Numbered from the stretch's first letter, positions 4,084-37,515 are shown. The stretch is 64,000 bases of DNA from an uncultured delta proteobacterium (GCA_963848295.1 CAWKDB010000002.1:896001-960000), one strand, 5' to 3'. The notes: generated by a model from the letters alone, not told the origin. A program made the numbers and translations.

Positions 4084-4500
4084 TCAGCCCGCGGCGCGAC
4101 GCAGCTGCGCGGCCATGTCCGAAAACCGGCCGAGTCGCGCGTAGACCCGCGCGAGCCCCGACGCTACGCGCGCTTCGAACCCGGGGGTCTGACCGGCTTG
4201 TAGAAACGCCTCTTCAGCGCCGAAGAAATCGCCACCCATGACGAGCACGTCACCGAGAGTCGCGAGCATCGCCGCGGCCGAGATCCTCGAGCTCGCGCGA
4301 CCGAGGCCGGCGCGCAAGATCGTCTGTGCGCGGGGACAGTCGCCCGCCTTTGCAAGTGCGACGGCATACGCGACGCGCGCGTTGCCGAAGCTCGGCGCGA
4401 GCTCGAGTGCGGCGCGCAACGATTCTTGCGCGCTGTCGAGATCTCCATTGTCGAGCGCTTGCTTGCCGCGCTCGTAGTAGCGCCGCGCGACCGAGCTCAA
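4084..4500 (-). CDS. Small TPR protein
   Basis: TPR-like helices 'YYERGKQALDNGDLDSAQESLRAALELAPSFGNARVAYAVAL'; TTG overlaps the upstream stop. Confidence 0.8.
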   Translation of the reverse strand: MSSVARRYYERGKQALDNGDLDSAQESLRAALELAPSFGNARVAYAVALAKAGDCPRAQTILRAGLGRASSRISAAAMLATLGDVLVMGGDFFGAEEAFLQAGQTPGFEARVASGLARVYARLGRFSDMAAQLRRAAG

Positions 4501-5110
4501 TCCAGCTCCAGCAGCGAGAACCGCGCGGAGGCGTCGTCGCCGGTGCCTTCCGGTTTGTCAGGGCTTGGCGCCGCCGGCGCTGCTGAATTCGCCGGCGCCG
4601 GCGCGACGGGCGCGGCCGGAGCGGCAGCTGGTGGCACCGCGCCCCCGGGCGTCGCGGTCGGTGCACCGCGCATCGACAAGCCGCGCACCGGTGGCGGCGC
4701 TGCAAGAGGTGCAGCTGCCGGCGCGGGCGGCCGTTGCTGCAACGTGGTCTCGACCACGCGTACGCCGGCCGCCGGACGCGGCATCTCTGCGGCTTGCAGT
4801 GGCTGGCGCCCCGCGACGAGCGGCTGCATCACCCCGCCGACCCGAACGCTGACCGTGTCGCCGTCGACCGTGAACATCGCGAGCTCGGGGAAATCGAACC
4901 GGGTCTGCAGCGCACTGATCACCTGCGCGAACGTCTGGCCCTGCAGATCCGCGAGCGTCTCGGCCTGATGCACGAGCATCGGGGGGGGCCCTCGACGACG
5001 TACTCCTTGACCACGAACGTCAGGATCTCGAGCAGCGCTTCGCGACCCATCTCGGCAAACGCATCCCGCACGTTGCTGGCGAGGTCGCGAAGGTCGGGCC
5101 GAGAGGGCAT
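4497..5110 (-). CDS. Hypothetical protein, frameshifted at the G8 run 4981-4988; ends ...SARFSLLELD
   Basis: The N-part (MPSRPDLRDLASNVRDAF...EYVVEGPP) continues in another frame (PPMLVHQAETL...) exactly at the homopolymer. Confidence 0.65.
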
Positions 5111-5125
5111 AGGCGAAGCGTATCG

Positions 5126-5806
5126 CTATAGCGTCGCGCCGTCGAGGTCGATGCCGTTGGTCTGACAACCGACAAACCGGACGCCGGTGAGGTCGGCGGT
5201 GCACAGGTTGACGCCGCGCAGATCGCACTTCACGAACGAAGCGCCGCGCAGGACCGCGCCGTACATATTGGCGCGCTTGAAGTCGACTTCGAACAGCGCC
5301 GCCCCGGTCCAGTCGGTGCGCGACAGCGACACGGTCGCTTGCTCGTAACCCTCGAACGCGACCTTGATCAGCACCGCGCCCGCGAAGTCAGCCGAGTACA
5401 GCTCGCTGTCTTTGAACGTCGTGTCTTGAATCCGCGCGCGATGGAATCGAACCCGAGCCATGCGCACCGGCCCGAGCTCGCAGCGCAGCAGCTGTGCGCC
5501 CGAGAAATCCAGCTCCGTCAGATCACAATCCTTCGCGCGCACGCGATTCCACAACGCGCCCTTCCACTGCGACGTGCGCAAGTCGCTCATCGTGAGCTCG
5601 GCGCGCTCGAGGCGCGAGTCGTCGGCATCGGCGCCGCGCAGATCGAGGCGATCGAGCGTCACGCCGTCGAGATCGACAGAGCGCAAGCCGACCGACGGCG
5701 CCGCGAAGCCCGCGACCGTGCGGCCGGCGAGCTCGTTCTCGGCGACCAGCCGTTCGAGCTGCACGCGCGATTGCACGACGCCGGCGTCTGCGCTGGTGTC
5801 ACTCAC
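5126..5806 (-). CDS. Pentapeptide repeat protein
   Basis: Regular A(D/N)Lxx-like pentads, e.g. LRGADADDSRLERAELTMSDLR, ANMYGAVLRGASFVKCDLRGVNL. Confidence 0.9.
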   Translation of the reverse strand: MSDTSADAGVVQSRVQLERLVAENELAGRTVAGFAAPSVGLRSVDLDGVTLDRLDLRGADADDSRLERAELTMSDLRTSQWKGALWNRVRAKDCDLTELDFSGAQLLRCELGPVRMARVRFHRARIQDTTFKDSELYSADFAGAVLIKVAFEGYEQATVSLSRTDWTGAALFEVDFKRANMYGAVLRGASFVKCDLRGVNLCTADLTGVRFVGCQTNGIDLDGATL

Positions 5807-5824
5807 GATAGCGATCGTAGCGCG

Positions 5825-35315: not shown

Positions 35316-35565
35316 TGTCTATTGTCTCCCGTTGTCTCGTGTCACTTGGTGCCGGCCCGGCACGGAGAACCTCGGCGGCTACAACGCTACGCCACCCACC
35401 TCGCGAAGCCTCGCTCCGCCCCGCCTACCTTGTAATCACCGATAGTCTCCCTGACGTTTCAGGTCTTCCCTTGGCCGTCGGGTCCGCCCACCCGCCGTAT
35501 GCGGATGGGCGCCCGCTTGATTCGTCGCTTTCTACGCCAACCCCGGTGGGTTGCTTCCTAGACCA

Positions 35566-36771
35566 CTACTCTTCGACGCCACCGCCGGACGCCATTTGGC
35601 CGACCCGGAAGATGACGAATTCCGCAGGCTTCACCGGCGCGAGGCCGATCTCGCAGACCAGCTGGCCGGCGTCGATCACCTCGGGCGGGTTGGTCTCCTC
35701 GTCGCACTTGACGTAGAACGCCTGCTCGGGCGAGACGCCCATCAGCGCGCCGTTGCGCCACAACAGGGTCAGGAACGACGAGATCGTCCGCTGCACGCGC
35801 TTCCACAGGCGATGGTCGTTGGGCTCGAACACGACCCACTGGGTCGCGCGCTCGATCGACGACTCGACCATGATGAACAGCCGGCGGACGTTGATGTAAC
35901 GCCACGACGGATCGCTGGACAGCGTGCGCGCACCCCAGATGCGGATGCCGCCGTTCATGAACCGGATCGCGTTGATGCCCTTCGGGTTCAACAGATCCTG
36001 CTCGCCCTTGCTCACGTTGTACTTGAGGCCGAGCGCGCCGCGCATGATCTCGTTCGCCGGCGCCTTGTGAACGCCGCGCTCGCTATCGGTGCGCGAGTAC
36101 ACGCCCGCGACGTGGCCCGAGGGCGGCACGAAGATGTTGCCCTTGTCCGGATCGTAGACCTGGATCCACGGGAAGTAGTAGGCGCCGTACTTCGAGTCGC
36201 GTGGCTTCGGCAGCTTGTCGACGCCGCCGGTGATCGTCTCCGGGGAGTCGAGGATCGCGAACCGATCCTTGCGCGTCTCGCAGTGCGAGAGCAGCGCGTC
36301 CTGCACCGCGGGCGAGACTTGGCCCGGCGCCGCGACGATCGCGATCTCGTCGACTTCCTCGAAGCACTTCAAGCCGCTGCGCGCACCGGGACCGCCGTCG
36401 CGGCCGATGTAGAGCGCTTCGCGACCGCCACCGACATGGACCGGAGCCTTGTCGTCCTTCTTGTCACCAGCCGAGGTCGCTTTGACTTCCTTCGCCGTGT
36501 CGGGAGCGCCGACGTTGACGACGAAGCAGCGCGAGCCGCCGTTGTTGAAGAAGCCGTAGACCGCGTGAGCGAGGTGCTCGCTACAGTCCTTGAAGTCACC
36601 GAACGTCTTGACGAACTGCGACCAGTTCGTGATCAAGACGGACTCGTTGAGCGGGCCCTTGGCCGACTCGCCGAGGAAACCGACGGTGTTGGTACCGACG
36701 GCCTCGATGGGTTTATTGCCGCGATCGACTTCTTCGACGTACACGCCTGGGGACAAGTAACTAGTAGCCAT
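35566..36771 (-). CDS. Tail sheath protein 1
   Basis: 'YLSPGVYVEEV...GFFNNGG...DRFAILD...YFPWI...PPSGHVAG...GVHKAPANE...WGARTLS...WRYINVRR...FEPND...PVKPAEFVIF'. Confidence 0.96.
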   Translation of the reverse strand: MATSYLSPGVYVEEVDRGNKPIEAVGTNTVGFLGESAKGPLNESVLITNWSQFVKTFGDFKDCSEHLAHAVYGFFNNGGSRCFVVNVGAPDTAKEVKATSAGDKKDDKAPVHVGGGREALYIGRDGGPGARSGLKCFEEVDEIAIVAAPGQVSPAVQDALLSHCETRKDRFAILDSPETITGGVDKLPKPRDSKYGAYYFPWIQVYDPDKGNIFVPPSGHVAGVYSRTDSERGVHKAPANEIMRGALGLKYNVSKGEQDLLNPKGINAIRFMNGGIRIWGARTLSSDPSWRYINVRRLFIMVESSIERATQWVVFEPNDHRLWKRVQRTISSFLTLLWRNGALMGVSPEQAFYVKCDEETNPPEVIDAGQLVCEIGLAPVKPAEFVIFRVGQMASGGGVEE

Positions 36772-36828
36772 GTCGTTCTCTCCTGTGCGGTGTGCCGATG
36801 CCGGTGGTCTTCGCCCGACTATCGGTGA

Positions 36829-37515
36829 TTACTTCTTGCCGCCTCCGCCGAGATCGAGTCGGCGTGCGCCAAGAAAAGGGTTGCCGTTCGGGCCGGTTTC
36901 AGAGACCCGCGGATCGATGATGGACTTGTATTCGAGTTGGCGCGATTGGACCCGCTTGAACTCCTCGAGCTTCTCCGGAAGGATCGGCACCGCGGTCCAC
37001 GCCTGGACCGCAGGACGCACCGGTTGGCTGAGGCTGCCCCAGAACCGTGCGAGCGTGCCTTCGTCGAGTCGCGCTGACATCAACACGTTGAGCTTGAAGT
37101 CGTCTTCGAACGACGCGCCCTTGAGCTTGTCGTGCGGCAGCTCGGCGTTCTCCATCACCGTGCGGATGATGAGCCCCATCAGCAGCTGCTCGTCTTCCGG
37201 GGTCTGCGCCCAGCAGGAGATCAAGTAATCGAGCCGGACCCATAGCCGGCGCCGGCGAAAATATTCCTTGAGCGTGCCGTCATCCTGCGGGACCTCGACG
37301 AGCTCGGCCGACGGCGTCGAGTCGTAGCCTTCGGGGTCGATCGACAGCTGATACAGGTAGACCGAAACCGCGGGCAGCTTGCCTTCGATCGCATCCGGCT
37401 TCGGCGCCGACTCCACGATGTGGACGCGCTTGTAGCCGTTGCGCTTGAACTCGTCTTGGAACAGCCGAGACAACGTCTCGGACGTCTCCTTGATGATGTG
37501 ATGCTGTGGCGTCAT
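36829..37515 (-). CDS. DUF4255 / Pvc16-Afp16-like cap (tail terminator) protein
   Basis: 'VSVYLYQL...LDYLISCW...EDEQLLMG...FWGSL...RPAV'; first gene of the cluster, the usual position for this family. Confidence 0.85.
   Translation of the reverse strand: MTPQHHIIKETSETLSRLFQDEFKRNGYKRVHIVESAPKPDAIEGKLPAVSVYLYQLSIDPEGYDSTPSAELVEVPQDDGTLKEYFRRRRLWVRLDYLISCWAQTPEDEQLLMGLIIRTVMENAELPHDKLKGASFEDDFKLNVLMSARLDEGTLARFWGSLSQPVRPAVQAWTAVPILPEKLEEFKRVQSRQLEYKSIIDPRVSETGPNGNPFLGARRLDLGGGGKK

What the first reader, a model, noticed from the sequence alone, without database searches (positions are those of the whole stretch)
4084..37515. eCIS variant coupled to an FHA / membrane-anchor / Ycf46-AAA module: candidate new CIS subtype
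Seen: a full headless contractile-tail gene set continues on the same strand, with short gaps or overlaps, into four FHA proteins, a Ycf46-type ATPase, DUF1257, DUF2997, DUF4157, pentapeptide and TPR genes; a Ser/Thr kinase and a PP2C phosphatase lie just beyond. Known: Afp/PVC/MAC-type eCIS use an Afp15 ATPase and a PAAR-type tip, while FHA/kinase/phosphatase control (Fha1-PpkA-PppA) is a T6SS feature. Inference: this may be a cell-attached or intracellular, signal-gated injection machine in a myxobacterium, with eCIS hardware and T6SS-like regulation. No holin/endolysin or TssJLM genes were seen.
Basis: partly seen in the sequence, partly recalled or inferred. Interest (0 to 1): 0.9.

Follow-up and report, generated by a model that had tools for sequence, protein, structure and literature searches.

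The report
Membrane-docked injection machine, undescribed lineage
A soil myxobacterium carries a phage-tail-like protein-injection gene cluster whose extra genes (membrane-spanning signalling proteins and a protein-remodelling motor related to an orphan algal and cyanobacterial gene) travel with it across many myxobacteria and a spirochaete, and it likely docks at the cell membrane and would fire from the living cell under phosphorylation control.

Summary
Observation confirmed with corrections. The minus strand 37515→4084 holds a headless contractile-tail set followed by four FHA genes, a Ycf46-type AAA, DUF1257, DUF2997, DUF4157, pentapeptide, an unknown and TPR. Corrections: a 1.5-kb insert separates AAA from DUF1257; five frameshifts are likely assembly errors; PAAR and Afp15-like ATPases exist in trans; the in-window kinase is not the conserved one. 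The block is contiguous in 36 of 40 Kofleriaceae loci. In most other families it is split, yet 80 of 83 CIS-bearing genomes of 301 carry DUF1257, against 2 of 218 others. A Treponema succinifaciens plasmid carries nearly the same gene set among toxin–immunity cassettes. The 510-aa post-baseplate protein models as TssK/IglD-like with a CBM-like head. Only FHA4 keeps the phosphothreonine-binding Arg; FHA1/2 carry a conserved Thr motif. Best reading: an undescribed lineage-II CIS clade, probably membrane-docked and phospho-gated (0.5); a released particle is the main rival. This scan noted the FHA–AAA–DUF1257–DUF2997 operon earlier on other DNA, without the CIS link.

The parts
36829..37515 (-). 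Pvc16/Afp16-type cap (tail terminator)
   Evidence: PF14065 E 5e-18
35566..36771 (-). Sheath 1
   Evidence: PF04984/PF17482; nearest solved sheaths are 8bky and 8bl4 (E 1e-133, 1e-130; that these are Streptomyces CIS is recalled); orthologue in 78 of 301 phylum genomes at 60-92%
34386..35315 (-). 309-aa tube-family protein
   Evidence: PF06841 at residues 15-140; two orphan paralogues elsewhere in the genome
33897..34304 (-). Tail-assembly chaperone
   Evidence: phrog_508 E 2e-5; profile hits the annotated tail assembly gene of a subtype IIa locus
33718..33900 (-). DUF6760-like small protein
   Evidence: 93% to G014; profile hits annotated DUF6760 gene E 2e-23
31943..33710 (-). Sheath 2, frameshifted near 33299 (likely assembly error)
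31438..31980 (-). Tube (gp19)
   Evidence: PF06841 E 5e-30
27460..31434 (-). 1,324-aa low-complexity protein, candidate tape measure or lumen protein
   Evidence: Conserved position; C-terminal helix profile ranks the long low-complexity or neighbouring ORFs of IIa/IId reference loci first; role inferred
26816..27463 (-). CIS tube initiator (Afp7-like)
   Evidence: PF19266 E 6e-27
25751..26812 (-). gp27-like hub (split Afp8)
   Evidence: PF05954, VgrG_rel
25029..25751 (-). gp5-like spike 1
   Evidence: PF04717
22013..25024 (-). gp5-like spike 2 with a 750-aa Ser/Gly-rich extension that G014 lacks
   Evidence: PF04717
21661..21843 (-). About 60-aa two-CxxC zinc-ribbon gene (ends approximate), conserved before gp25
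   Evidence: seen by eye in G041, G337, G264, G166
21233..21661 (-). gp25 wedge
   Evidence: PF04965 E 7e-22
18178..21218 (-). Single about 1,010-aa baseplate J, in three frames here (breaks near 20558 and 19856, likely assembly errors)
17299..18178 (-). PASTA + P2-I (Cis12-like) wedge protein, frameshifted near 17640
   Evidence: PF03793, PF09684
15757..17289 (-). 510-aa TssK/IglD-like shoulder and neck with a CBM6/35-like head (Cis13 position)
   Evidence: NF053767 below cut-off; model pLDDT 86; Foldseek top hits TssK E 4e-6, TM 0.29; IglD Z 10.6, rmsd 6.6, 230 aligned; CBM35 Z 11.2, rmsd 2.9, 124 aligned
14749..15705 (-). FHA1: soluble, zinc ribbon + conserved Thr motif + FHA lacking the binding Arg
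13217..14752 (-). FHA2: signal peptide, predicted periplasmic vWA-like domain, one transmembrane helix, cytoplasmic FHA; candidate anchor or sensor
   Evidence: vWA weak, E 0.037; profile hits the annotated VWA gene of Treponema
12745..13206 (-). FHA3: N-terminal transmembrane helix, zinc ribbon, FHA
10213..12672 (-). FHA4: FHA with the canonical Arg, Pro-rich linker, about 500-aa coiled coil
8595..10208 (-). Ycf46-type AAA+ ATPase (family label recalled; about 25% to Afp15 over the AAA domain only)
7121..8594 (.). Strain-specific insert without conserved genes
6713..7120 (-). DUF1257 (Ycf35-like)
   Evidence: model pLDDT 86.5 without a PDB match
6483..6716 (-). DUF2997
   Evidence: PF11211 E 1e-12
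5825..6463 (-). Stand-alone DUF4157 (eCIS core)
   Evidence: PF13699 E 8e-20
5126..5806 (-). Pentapeptide-repeat protein; fused to the next gene in several distant families
4497..5110 (-). 199-aa unknown protein (frameshifted near 4990) that ends in the same R-x-L-E-hydrophobic tail as the AAA ATPase
4084..4500 (-). TPR protein
   Evidence: PF14559 E 3e-10
1..500 (+). 3' part of the conserved, converging PP2C phosphatase (starts before the window; conserved kinase lies upstream of it)
   Evidence: NF033484 partial; 84% to G014

Best explanation
This is a phage-tail-derived contractile injection system of a distinct lineage-II-like clade shared by many Myxococcota and by spirochaetes, and it likely stays in the living cell, where a predicted TssK-like baseplate protein would dock it on membrane-spanning FHA/vWA proteins, a kinase and PP2C would gate it through a conserved threonine, and the Ycf46-type ATPase with DUF1257 and DUF2997 would remodel or recycle it. 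Shown: gene content, synteny, co-occurrence, transmembrane segments, motif conservation. Predicted: the TssK/IglD-like fold with a CBM-like head. Inferred steps: (1) cap, sheaths, tubes, hub, spikes and wedge assemble in the cytoplasm; PAAR tip and Afp15-like loaders come in trans; cargo rides on spike extensions and DUF4157 proteins. (2) The TssK-like protein binds FHA1 and bitopic FHA2/FHA3, whose Arg-less FHA domains act as docking surfaces, with the periplasmic vWA-like domain as sensor or anchor. (3) Phosphorylation of the K-T-x-x-hydrophobic site of FHA1/FHA2 is read by FHA4, the only Arg-retaining FHA, whose coiled coil brings in the AAA-DUF1257-DUF2997 module; PP2C resets it. (4) The sheath contracts into a touching cell, and the ATPase clears the spent particle. 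I put 0.8 on 'distinct clade with these genes as co-inherited parts' and 0.5 on the whole mechanism.
For: Synteny in 36 of 40 Kofleriaceae loci and in G041 of a second family. An FHA gene directly follows the TssK-like gene in 16 of 20 loci from other families (one cut by a contig end), and FHA4 precedes the AAA in 16 of 17. Among 301 phylum genomes: TssK-like full length 83, DUF1257 82, both 80; of 58 genomes with Afp15-like ATPases but without this CIS only 2 have DUF1257. Other physical arrangements: AAA-DUF1257-DUF2997 just upstream of Pvc16-sheath in G330, DUF1257 likewise in G102. T. succinifaciens pTRESU01 is the best plasmid hit for both baseplate J and the AAA and carries DUF1257, DUF2997, pentapeptide, the unknown gene (by eye), TssK-like, zinc-ribbon-FHA, vWA-TM and DUF4157 genes among VgrG/PAAR cassettes with annotated toxin domains and candidate immunity genes. 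TssK/IglD fold match. TM helices. Arg present in FHA4 42 of 44, FHA1 1 of 78, FHA2 0 of 68, FHA3 0 of 56; Thr motif in FHA1 77 of 78 (shuffles 1.5) and FHA2 58 of 71 (shuffles 1.1). PP2C beside the AAA module in 6 of 17 loci from other families. Precedents: CisA, a bitopic protein encoded right after the baseplate, is needed for firing (PMC12237407); a dbeCIS IIa cluster works as a membrane-bound T6SS (PMC11566945; IIa label).
Against: No expression, imaging or binding data. No outer-membrane or trans-envelope part was identified, so passage through a diderm envelope is unexplained. The CBM-like head fits a glycan-binding fibre of a released particle as well as a docking head, and the TssK match has low TM-score (0.29) and 8-11% identity. 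The AAA module is unlinked from the CIS in most families (3.5 Mb apart in the one-contig genome G337) and occurs widely without a known CIS on plasmids of Bacillus, Planktothrix and others (one search lists the ATPase only). Co-occurrence is among kin and partly reflects ancestry; G330 and Treponema group together in the tree (long-branch warning), so their linkage may be one event. G054, G110 and G189 have the CIS without a DUF1257 match; 4 of 20 distant loci lack the FHA genes after the TssK-like gene. Afp15-like ATPases are present in all 83, so the Ycf46 ATPase need not be the CIS ATPase. No FHA4-like coiled-coil, PP2C or kinase match on the four plasmid stretches of Treponema. No toxin-immunity pair lies in the window locus. 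The role of the FHA Arg is recalled.
Confidence: 0.5

Rival explanations
1. A released, single-use eCIS: the 510-aa protein is a short tail fibre whose CBM-like head binds target glycans, and the PASTA domain binds target peptidoglycan; the FHA/kinase/AAA genes time assembly or release but do not anchor the particle.
For: CBM35/CBM6-like head, Z about 11; Cis13 position and weak NF053767 match; PASTA on a wedge protein without signal peptide; DUF4157 and Afp15-like loaders are eCIS marks (PMC8213781 passages); no IcmF_C match.
Against: Bitopic vWA-TM proteins stay next to the TssK-like gene in two phyla; sheath 1 is 72-76% identical across most families and the TssK-like head is strongly conserved, unlike a variable receptor-binding fibre; the Treponema locus has VgrG/PAAR toxin cassettes with candidate immunity genes.
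Confidence: 0.25
2. A cytoplasmic self-targeting CIS like that of Streptomyces coelicolor: FHA2 plays the part of CisA, and stress-triggered firing damages the producer's own envelope for programmed death or development.
For: Nearest solved sheaths; FHA2 sits where cisA sits and has a like topology; single, slowly changing copy across many families; no toxin-immunity genes in the window locus.
Against: Polymorphic toxin cassettes and a plasmid location in Treponema point to conflict with other cells; up to seven spike genes in G264; orphan PAAR, spike and tube genes in G000.
Confidence: 0.15
3. Two separate machines: the CIS (with FHA1-3) and an independent FHA4-AAA-DUF1257-DUF2997 stress or remodelling module that share ancestry and regulation and were joined into one operon in Haliangiales by chance.
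For: Unlinked in most families; the ATPase family is on many plasmids and has phage families; 1.5-kb insert in this genome; three CIS genomes lack a DUF1257 match.
Against: 80 of 83 against 2 of 218; within family f37 three genomes lack both and nine have both; in Treponema the three genes are each embedded separately among CIS genes.
Confidence: 0.1

Closest known systems
dbeCIS lineage II eCIS (subtypes IIa-IId; Chen et al. 2019, PMC6899500)
   Same: Tube, sheath, Afp7, Afp8, Afp9, Afp11, Afp16 in one locus; split Afp8, single Afp11, divergent Afp12/13 and no PAAR in the locus recall IIb; chaperone, DUF6760 and low-complexity gene shared with IIa/IId loci.
   Different: About 1,000-aa baseplate J forms its own clade with Treponema (SH-aLRT 97, quick tree, 11 reference rows from 7 loci); Afp15 and PAAR in trans; TssK-like+CBM protein, FHA/vWA genes and Ycf46-DUF1257-DUF2997 had no full-length counterpart in the seven reference loci (one, P. 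caribensis, has divergent FHA and PP2C genes upstream).
Streptomyces coelicolor CIS with CisA (subtype IId; PMC12237407)
   Same: Related sheath; bitopic membrane protein encoded directly after the baseplate; no lysis genes.
   Different: Opposite topology (FHA2 has its N-terminus outside), FHA domains, two sheaths, split spike, diderm host, Ycf46 module.
Haloarchaeal T6SS of Halogeometricum borinquense (dbeCIS IIa; PMC11566945)
   Same: Lineage-II hardware used as a membrane-bound, contact-dependent weapon with a lineage-specific putative anchor and toxin-immunity pairs.
   Different: Two Cis11 copies, PAAR in the locus, S-layer envelope; FHA, PASTA not mentioned in the main text.
Canonical T6SS (i-iii) with TssK and the Fha/PpkA/PppA switch (recalled)
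   Same: TssK/IglD-like fold at the baseplate rim; FHA proteins, Ser/Thr kinase and PP2C; an AAA+ ATPase beside the cluster.
   Different: No IcmF_C match; single-gene phage-type sheaths, Afp16 cap, Afp11-type baseplate; ATPase is of the CDC48/FtsH-like class, not ClpV; TssK head replaced by a CBM-like domain.
Cyanobacterial and plastid Ycf46 / Ycf35 (DUF1257) / DUF2997 trio (function unknown; label partly recalled)
   Same: Same three genes in the same order; 44% to cyanobacterial plasmid ATPases.
   Different: Here preceded by an FHA-coiled-coil gene and tied by co-occurrence and linkage to a contractile tail.

Membership tests
eCIS/PLTS superfamily (Chen 2019 core) | Afp1/5, Afp2/3/4, Afp7, Afp8, Afp9, Afp11, Afp16 homologues | tested here: met
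eCIS/PLTS superfamily (Chen 2019 core) | Afp15 ATPase in the locus | tested here: not met
   Locus AAA is about 25% to Afp15 over one domain; seven Afp15-like genes lie elsewhere
eCIS/PLTS superfamily (Chen 2019 core) | No head, portal or terminase genes in the cluster | tested here: met
   None among 74 window ORFs scanned with Pfam
eCIS (mode of action) | Particles released and active outside the producer | not testable with these tools
   needs experiment
dbeCIS subtype IIb | Split afp8, single afp11, no afp10 in locus, divergent afp12/13 | tested here: met
dbeCIS subtype IIb | Afp11 groups with IIb | tested here: inconclusive
dbeCIS subtype IIb | afp6 present | not tested
   No Afp6 sequence was used as query
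dbeCIS subtypes IIa and IIc | Two afp11 copies | tested here: not met
   One about 1,010-aa gene in relatives; one locus in the genome
dbeCIS subtype IId | Fused gp27-gp5 (afp8) gene | tested here: not met
   Hub and spikes are separate genes; the Treponema plasmid has both hub-with-extension and separate spike genes
T6SS i-iii | TssJ/L/M membrane complex | tested here: inconclusive
   IcmF_C not found in an 85%-complete genome; TssJ and TssL not searched
T6SS i-iii | TssB/TssC sheath and ClpV | tested here: not met
   Sheaths are Phage_sheath_1 type; locus ATPase matches CDC48/FtsH-class models below cut-off
T6SS i-iii | TssK-like baseplate connector | tested here: inconclusive
   Predicted fold matches TssK/IglD shoulder and neck, head differs; no sequence match
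T6SS mode of action (any subtype) | Fires from a membrane-attached state in a living cell | not testable with these tools
   needs cryo-ET and killing assays

The most novel reading that the evidence does not exclude
A further, independent type-VI-like secretion system, built from lineage-II eCIS hardware, a TssK-like connector and an FHA/vWA inner-membrane dock, conserved in over a quarter of sampled Myxococcota genomes and across spirochaetes, reloaded by a Ycf46-DUF1257-DUF2997 unfoldase recruited through a pThr-FHA switch. That would give spirochaetes a contact weapon and the orphan ycf46/ycf35 genes their first substrate.
Probability: 0.3. Interest if true: 0.9.

Novelty: new variant of a known kind. 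Interest (0 to 1): 0.75.

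Why it matters
The mode of action of most lineage-II injection systems is unknown, and the few studied ones (Streptomyces, Halogeometricum) proved not to be simple released particles. This clade is common (83 of 301 sampled Myxococcota genomes; relatives of its marker protein in named spirochaetes), has a defined candidate membrane dock and phospho-switch, and is present in a cultured strain on a plasmid, so it can be tested directly. 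It also offers a concrete substrate context for the Ycf46/Ycf35/DUF2997 trio, unexplained in cyanobacteria and plastids. Because the parts are often split and Afp15 lies in trans, locus-based catalogues would tend to miss or misfile it.

Tried and rejected
Rejected: Ycf46 ATPase as a plain replacement for Afp15 (Afp15-like genes in 83 of 83 CIS genomes). Rejected: PAAR-less system (orphan PAAR on C10). Rejected: window kinase 2549-4060 as the conserved regulator (an orthologue with its PEGA partner is near the cluster in 1 of 4 relatives tested; the G014 row of that test returned nothing because no database was built for it). Rejected: pseudogenised or defective-prophage reading (frameshifts not shared; no phage relative of the full TssK-like protein, 1 partial hit among 146 pattern matches). 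Not supported: a shared C-terminal helix between DUF4157 and the 1,324-aa protein (1 of 32 tails above 6 bits). The genome-wide count of the AAA/unknown-protein tail motif (12 of 40,250 ORFs) is circular and is not used; only its conservation across families is. Promoter/terminator scan 4000-23000: nothing above shuffles, so co-transcription is untested. No RNA holder listed. A first FHA motif parse failed by a spacing error and was redone. A genome-wide survey of spirochaetes could not be run. The careful tree did not finish; the quick tree is reported.

Full report
Observation. The window is G000:C2:896001-960000 of a 7.8-Mb, 85%-complete genome; the closest named relatives of its proteins are Kofleriaceae. 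On the minus strand from 37515 to 4084 lie Pvc16, sheath 1, a 309-aa tube-family gene, tail-assembly chaperone, DUF6760-like, sheath 2, tube, a 1,324-aa low-complexity gene, CIS_tube, hub, two spike genes, a small zinc-ribbon gene, gp25, baseplate J, PASTA-P2-I, a 510-aa gene, FHA1-4, an AAA ATPase, DUF1257, DUF2997, DUF4157, pentapeptide, a 199-aa unknown and TPR. Five frameshifts break four structural or accessory genes; at the three covered places near-identical short-read contigs have one base fewer (single low-depth contigs) and G014, G005 and G026 have whole genes (G011 also shows a break in sheath 2), so I read them as assembly errors. AAA and DUF1257 are 1,474 bases apart here but at most 124 in 29 of 35 relatives. 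The kinase at 2549-4060 belongs to a kinase-PEGA cassette seen near the cluster in 1 of 4 relatives; the conserved kinase-PP2C pair converges on the cluster end, with the kinase just outside the window.

Synteny. Sheath 1 matched in 35 of 36 genus genomes (tally includes unpublished G010, on which no claim rests). Of 80 loci fetched around the 510-aa gene, 40 had at least 9.5 kb downstream; 36 of these carry FHA1-4 and the AAA in order. G041, of a second family, keeps the whole order. In 301 phylum genomes the 510-aa protein matched at full or near-full strength (E below 1e-50) in 83 and weakly, through its N-terminal part, in 29 more that I set aside; DUF1257 matched in 82; both in 80; sheath 1 at E below 1e-120 in 78, all among the 83. 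Outside the own family the system is mostly split into module A (core to baseplate, 510-aa gene, FHA1, FHA2) and module B (FHA4, AAA, DUF1257, DUF2997, often with a divergent pentapeptide-unknown fusion and PP2C). I fetched 20 A loci and 17 B loci from other families, chosen for long contigs: an FHA gene follows the 510-aa gene in 16 of 20, FHA4 precedes the AAA in 16 of 17, PP2C is nearby in 6 of 17. Spike genes are often in a third place. G330 and G102 put module-B genes upstream of Pvc16-sheath. Kin are not independent, so these counts overstate the odds.

Second phylum. The best of 70 plasmid records for baseplate J and of 31 for the AAA is T. succinifaciens pTRESU01. It encodes gp25, a 988-aa baseplate J, two sheaths, tubes, DUF1257 between CIS genes, P2-I, a 506-aa orthologue (E 1e-56) followed by zinc-ribbon-FHA and vWA-TM genes, the AAA among VgrG and spike cassettes, and a run spike-DUF2997-chaperone-pentapeptide-unknown-DUF6760, plus DUF4157 genes and annotated toxin domains with candidate immunity genes. 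No Afp15, FHA4-coiled-coil, kinase or PP2C match was found on the plasmid; its chromosome was not searched. The 506-aa protein has 133 relatives at E below 1e-20; the named ones among the 120 listed are all spirochaetes; their gene neighbourhoods were not checked.

Placement. A quick tree of 34 baseplate J proteins puts 22 Myxococcota rows and Treponema in one clade (SH-aLRT 97) apart from 11 reference rows from seven IIa-IId plasmid loci; references are few, untrimmed and long-branched, and the IIb row is a stand-in. By gene layout the locus resembles IIb as described in PMC6899500 (passages, part of section 3 and supplement 1 part 17 read). That paper's subtype gene maps are figures I could not read, its genome table was cut, and the full locus list was not seen, so a dbeCIS entry for this clade is not excluded; pTRESU01 is not in its plasmid table. 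PMC4122934 (passages) counts four Treponema and two Spirochaeta clusters, so spirochaete core genes were noticed in 2014, and it notes that lack of lysis genes is general.

Parts in trans. G000 has seven Afp15-like ATPases away from CIS genes, an orphan PAAR beside a gene whose orthologue sits inside the G041 cluster, orphan tube, CIS_tube and spike genes and two 2,200-aa DUF4157 proteins. Afp15-like ATPases matched in 141 of 301 genomes, including all 83 carriers; of the other 58 only 2 have DUF1257. So module B follows this CIS clade and not eCIS in general, but it does not simply replace Afp15.

Mechanistic clues. The 510-aa model (pLDDT 86, pTM 0.56) has a beta shoulder, helical neck and beta-sandwich head; Foldseek ranks TssK first and VIA aligns residues 10-315 to IglD (Z 10.6, rmsd 6.6) and the head to CBM35/CBM6 (Z about 11). 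FHA2 has a signal peptide and one TM helix, FHA3 an N-terminal TM helix (hydropathy only). The Arg after the first conserved Gly, recalled as the phosphothreonine contact, is kept in FHA4 (42 of 44 parsed, of 54) and lost in FHA1 (1 of 78), FHA2 (0 of 68 parsed, of 71) and FHA3 (0 of 56); a K/R-T-x-x-hydrophobic motif precedes the FHA domain in 77 of 78 FHA1 and 58 of 71 FHA2 proteins against 1.5 and 1.1 in shuffles (most rows are Kofleriaceae; the Thr is invariant in a 31-row alignment with 14 rows from L101 onward). The AAA and the 199-aa unknown end in a like R-x-L-E-hydrophobic tail across families. DUF1257 folds confidently but has no PDB match.

Mechanism and rivals. I commit to a membrane-docked, phospho-gated injector fired from the living cell, with module B as remodeller (0.5). 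Every step after gene content and fold is inferred; analogies are CisA (PMC12237407, passages) and the haloarchaeal T6SS (PMC11566945, passages). Rivals: released eCIS with a glycan-binding fibre (0.25), Streptomyces-like self-killing (0.15), module B as a separate machine (0.1). The main hole is the lack of any outer-envelope part.

Novelty. Searches of the held library found no paper joining these parts: DUF2997/DUF1257 (5 papers, none on CIS by listing), CIS+Myxococcota+FHA (0), eCIS+FHA (3), CIS+Treponema (5), CIS+myxobacteria (11), all seen as listings only. Passages of PMC8213781, PMC12210884 and PMC3482391 do not describe it. Subscription journals and preprint supplements were not searchable. 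Earlier notes of this scan describe module B in myxobacteria and the trio in other systems, without a CIS link. Verdict: new variant of a known kind; interest 0.75.

Noticed in passing
window 48959-63974 (-): Type II secretion gene run (T2SS C, secretin D, E, F, G, pseudopilins, L-like, M) preceded by a sigma-54 regulator; ordinary, about 11 kb from the CIS.
   Followed up: no
window 455-4060: Ser/Thr kinase, TPR/PEGA-like protein and a converging Gly-rich lipoprotein-like ORF inserted between the TPR gene and PP2C; a 70% orthologous kinase-PEGA pair sits inside the cluster in G005.
   Followed up: partly
window 7121-8594: Insert with a 50-aa His/Arg-rich lipoprotein-like ORF on the + strand, an AGCGGC repeat and fragments that look like a decayed four-helix-bundle gene (by eye).
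   Followed up: no
window 22013-24260: Spike 2 carries a 750-aa Ser/Gly/Thr repeat tail; G014 has none, and G011, G005, G026 have about 3 kb at this place: a length-variable spike extension.
   Followed up: partly
window 37506-47156: 2Fe-2S ferredoxin-like ORF, PilZ protein, aspartyl-tRNA synthetase (the cluster's upstream neighbour also appears so in G014), inward-rectifier K+ channel, two trypsin-PDZ proteases, MoaE, a further kinase at 47059-48942.
   Followed up: no
L156:8455-9608 (G000 C10 about 4630.5-4631.6 kb): Orphan PAAR gene behind a 275-aa Pro-rich gene whose orthologue lies inside the CIS cluster of G041.
   Followed up: partly
G000 C2:477652-484443 and C10:4150709-4157338: Two about 2,200-aa proteins, each with two DUF4157 domains; candidate cargo, C-terminal domains not analysed.
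   Followed up: no
L143:21913-24068 (pTRESU01): A 4Fe-4S radical-SAM-like gene lies directly before the AAA ATPase, as in the AAA-DUF1257-DUF2997-radical SAM module of earlier notes.
   Followed up: no
L005 (G041 C3 64.4-74.6 kb): Methyltransferase-like, radical-SAM and other genes inserted between spike and gp25.
   Followed up: no
L150:3-2599 (P. caribensis plasmid, subtype IIa): FHA and PP2C genes lie divergently upstream of a IIa cluster, so FHA/PP2C next to lineage-II CIS is not unique to this clade.
   Followed up: no
family f59 genomes (for example G225 C49, G309 C116): A second, more distant full-length copy of the TssK-like gene on another contig.
   Followed up: no
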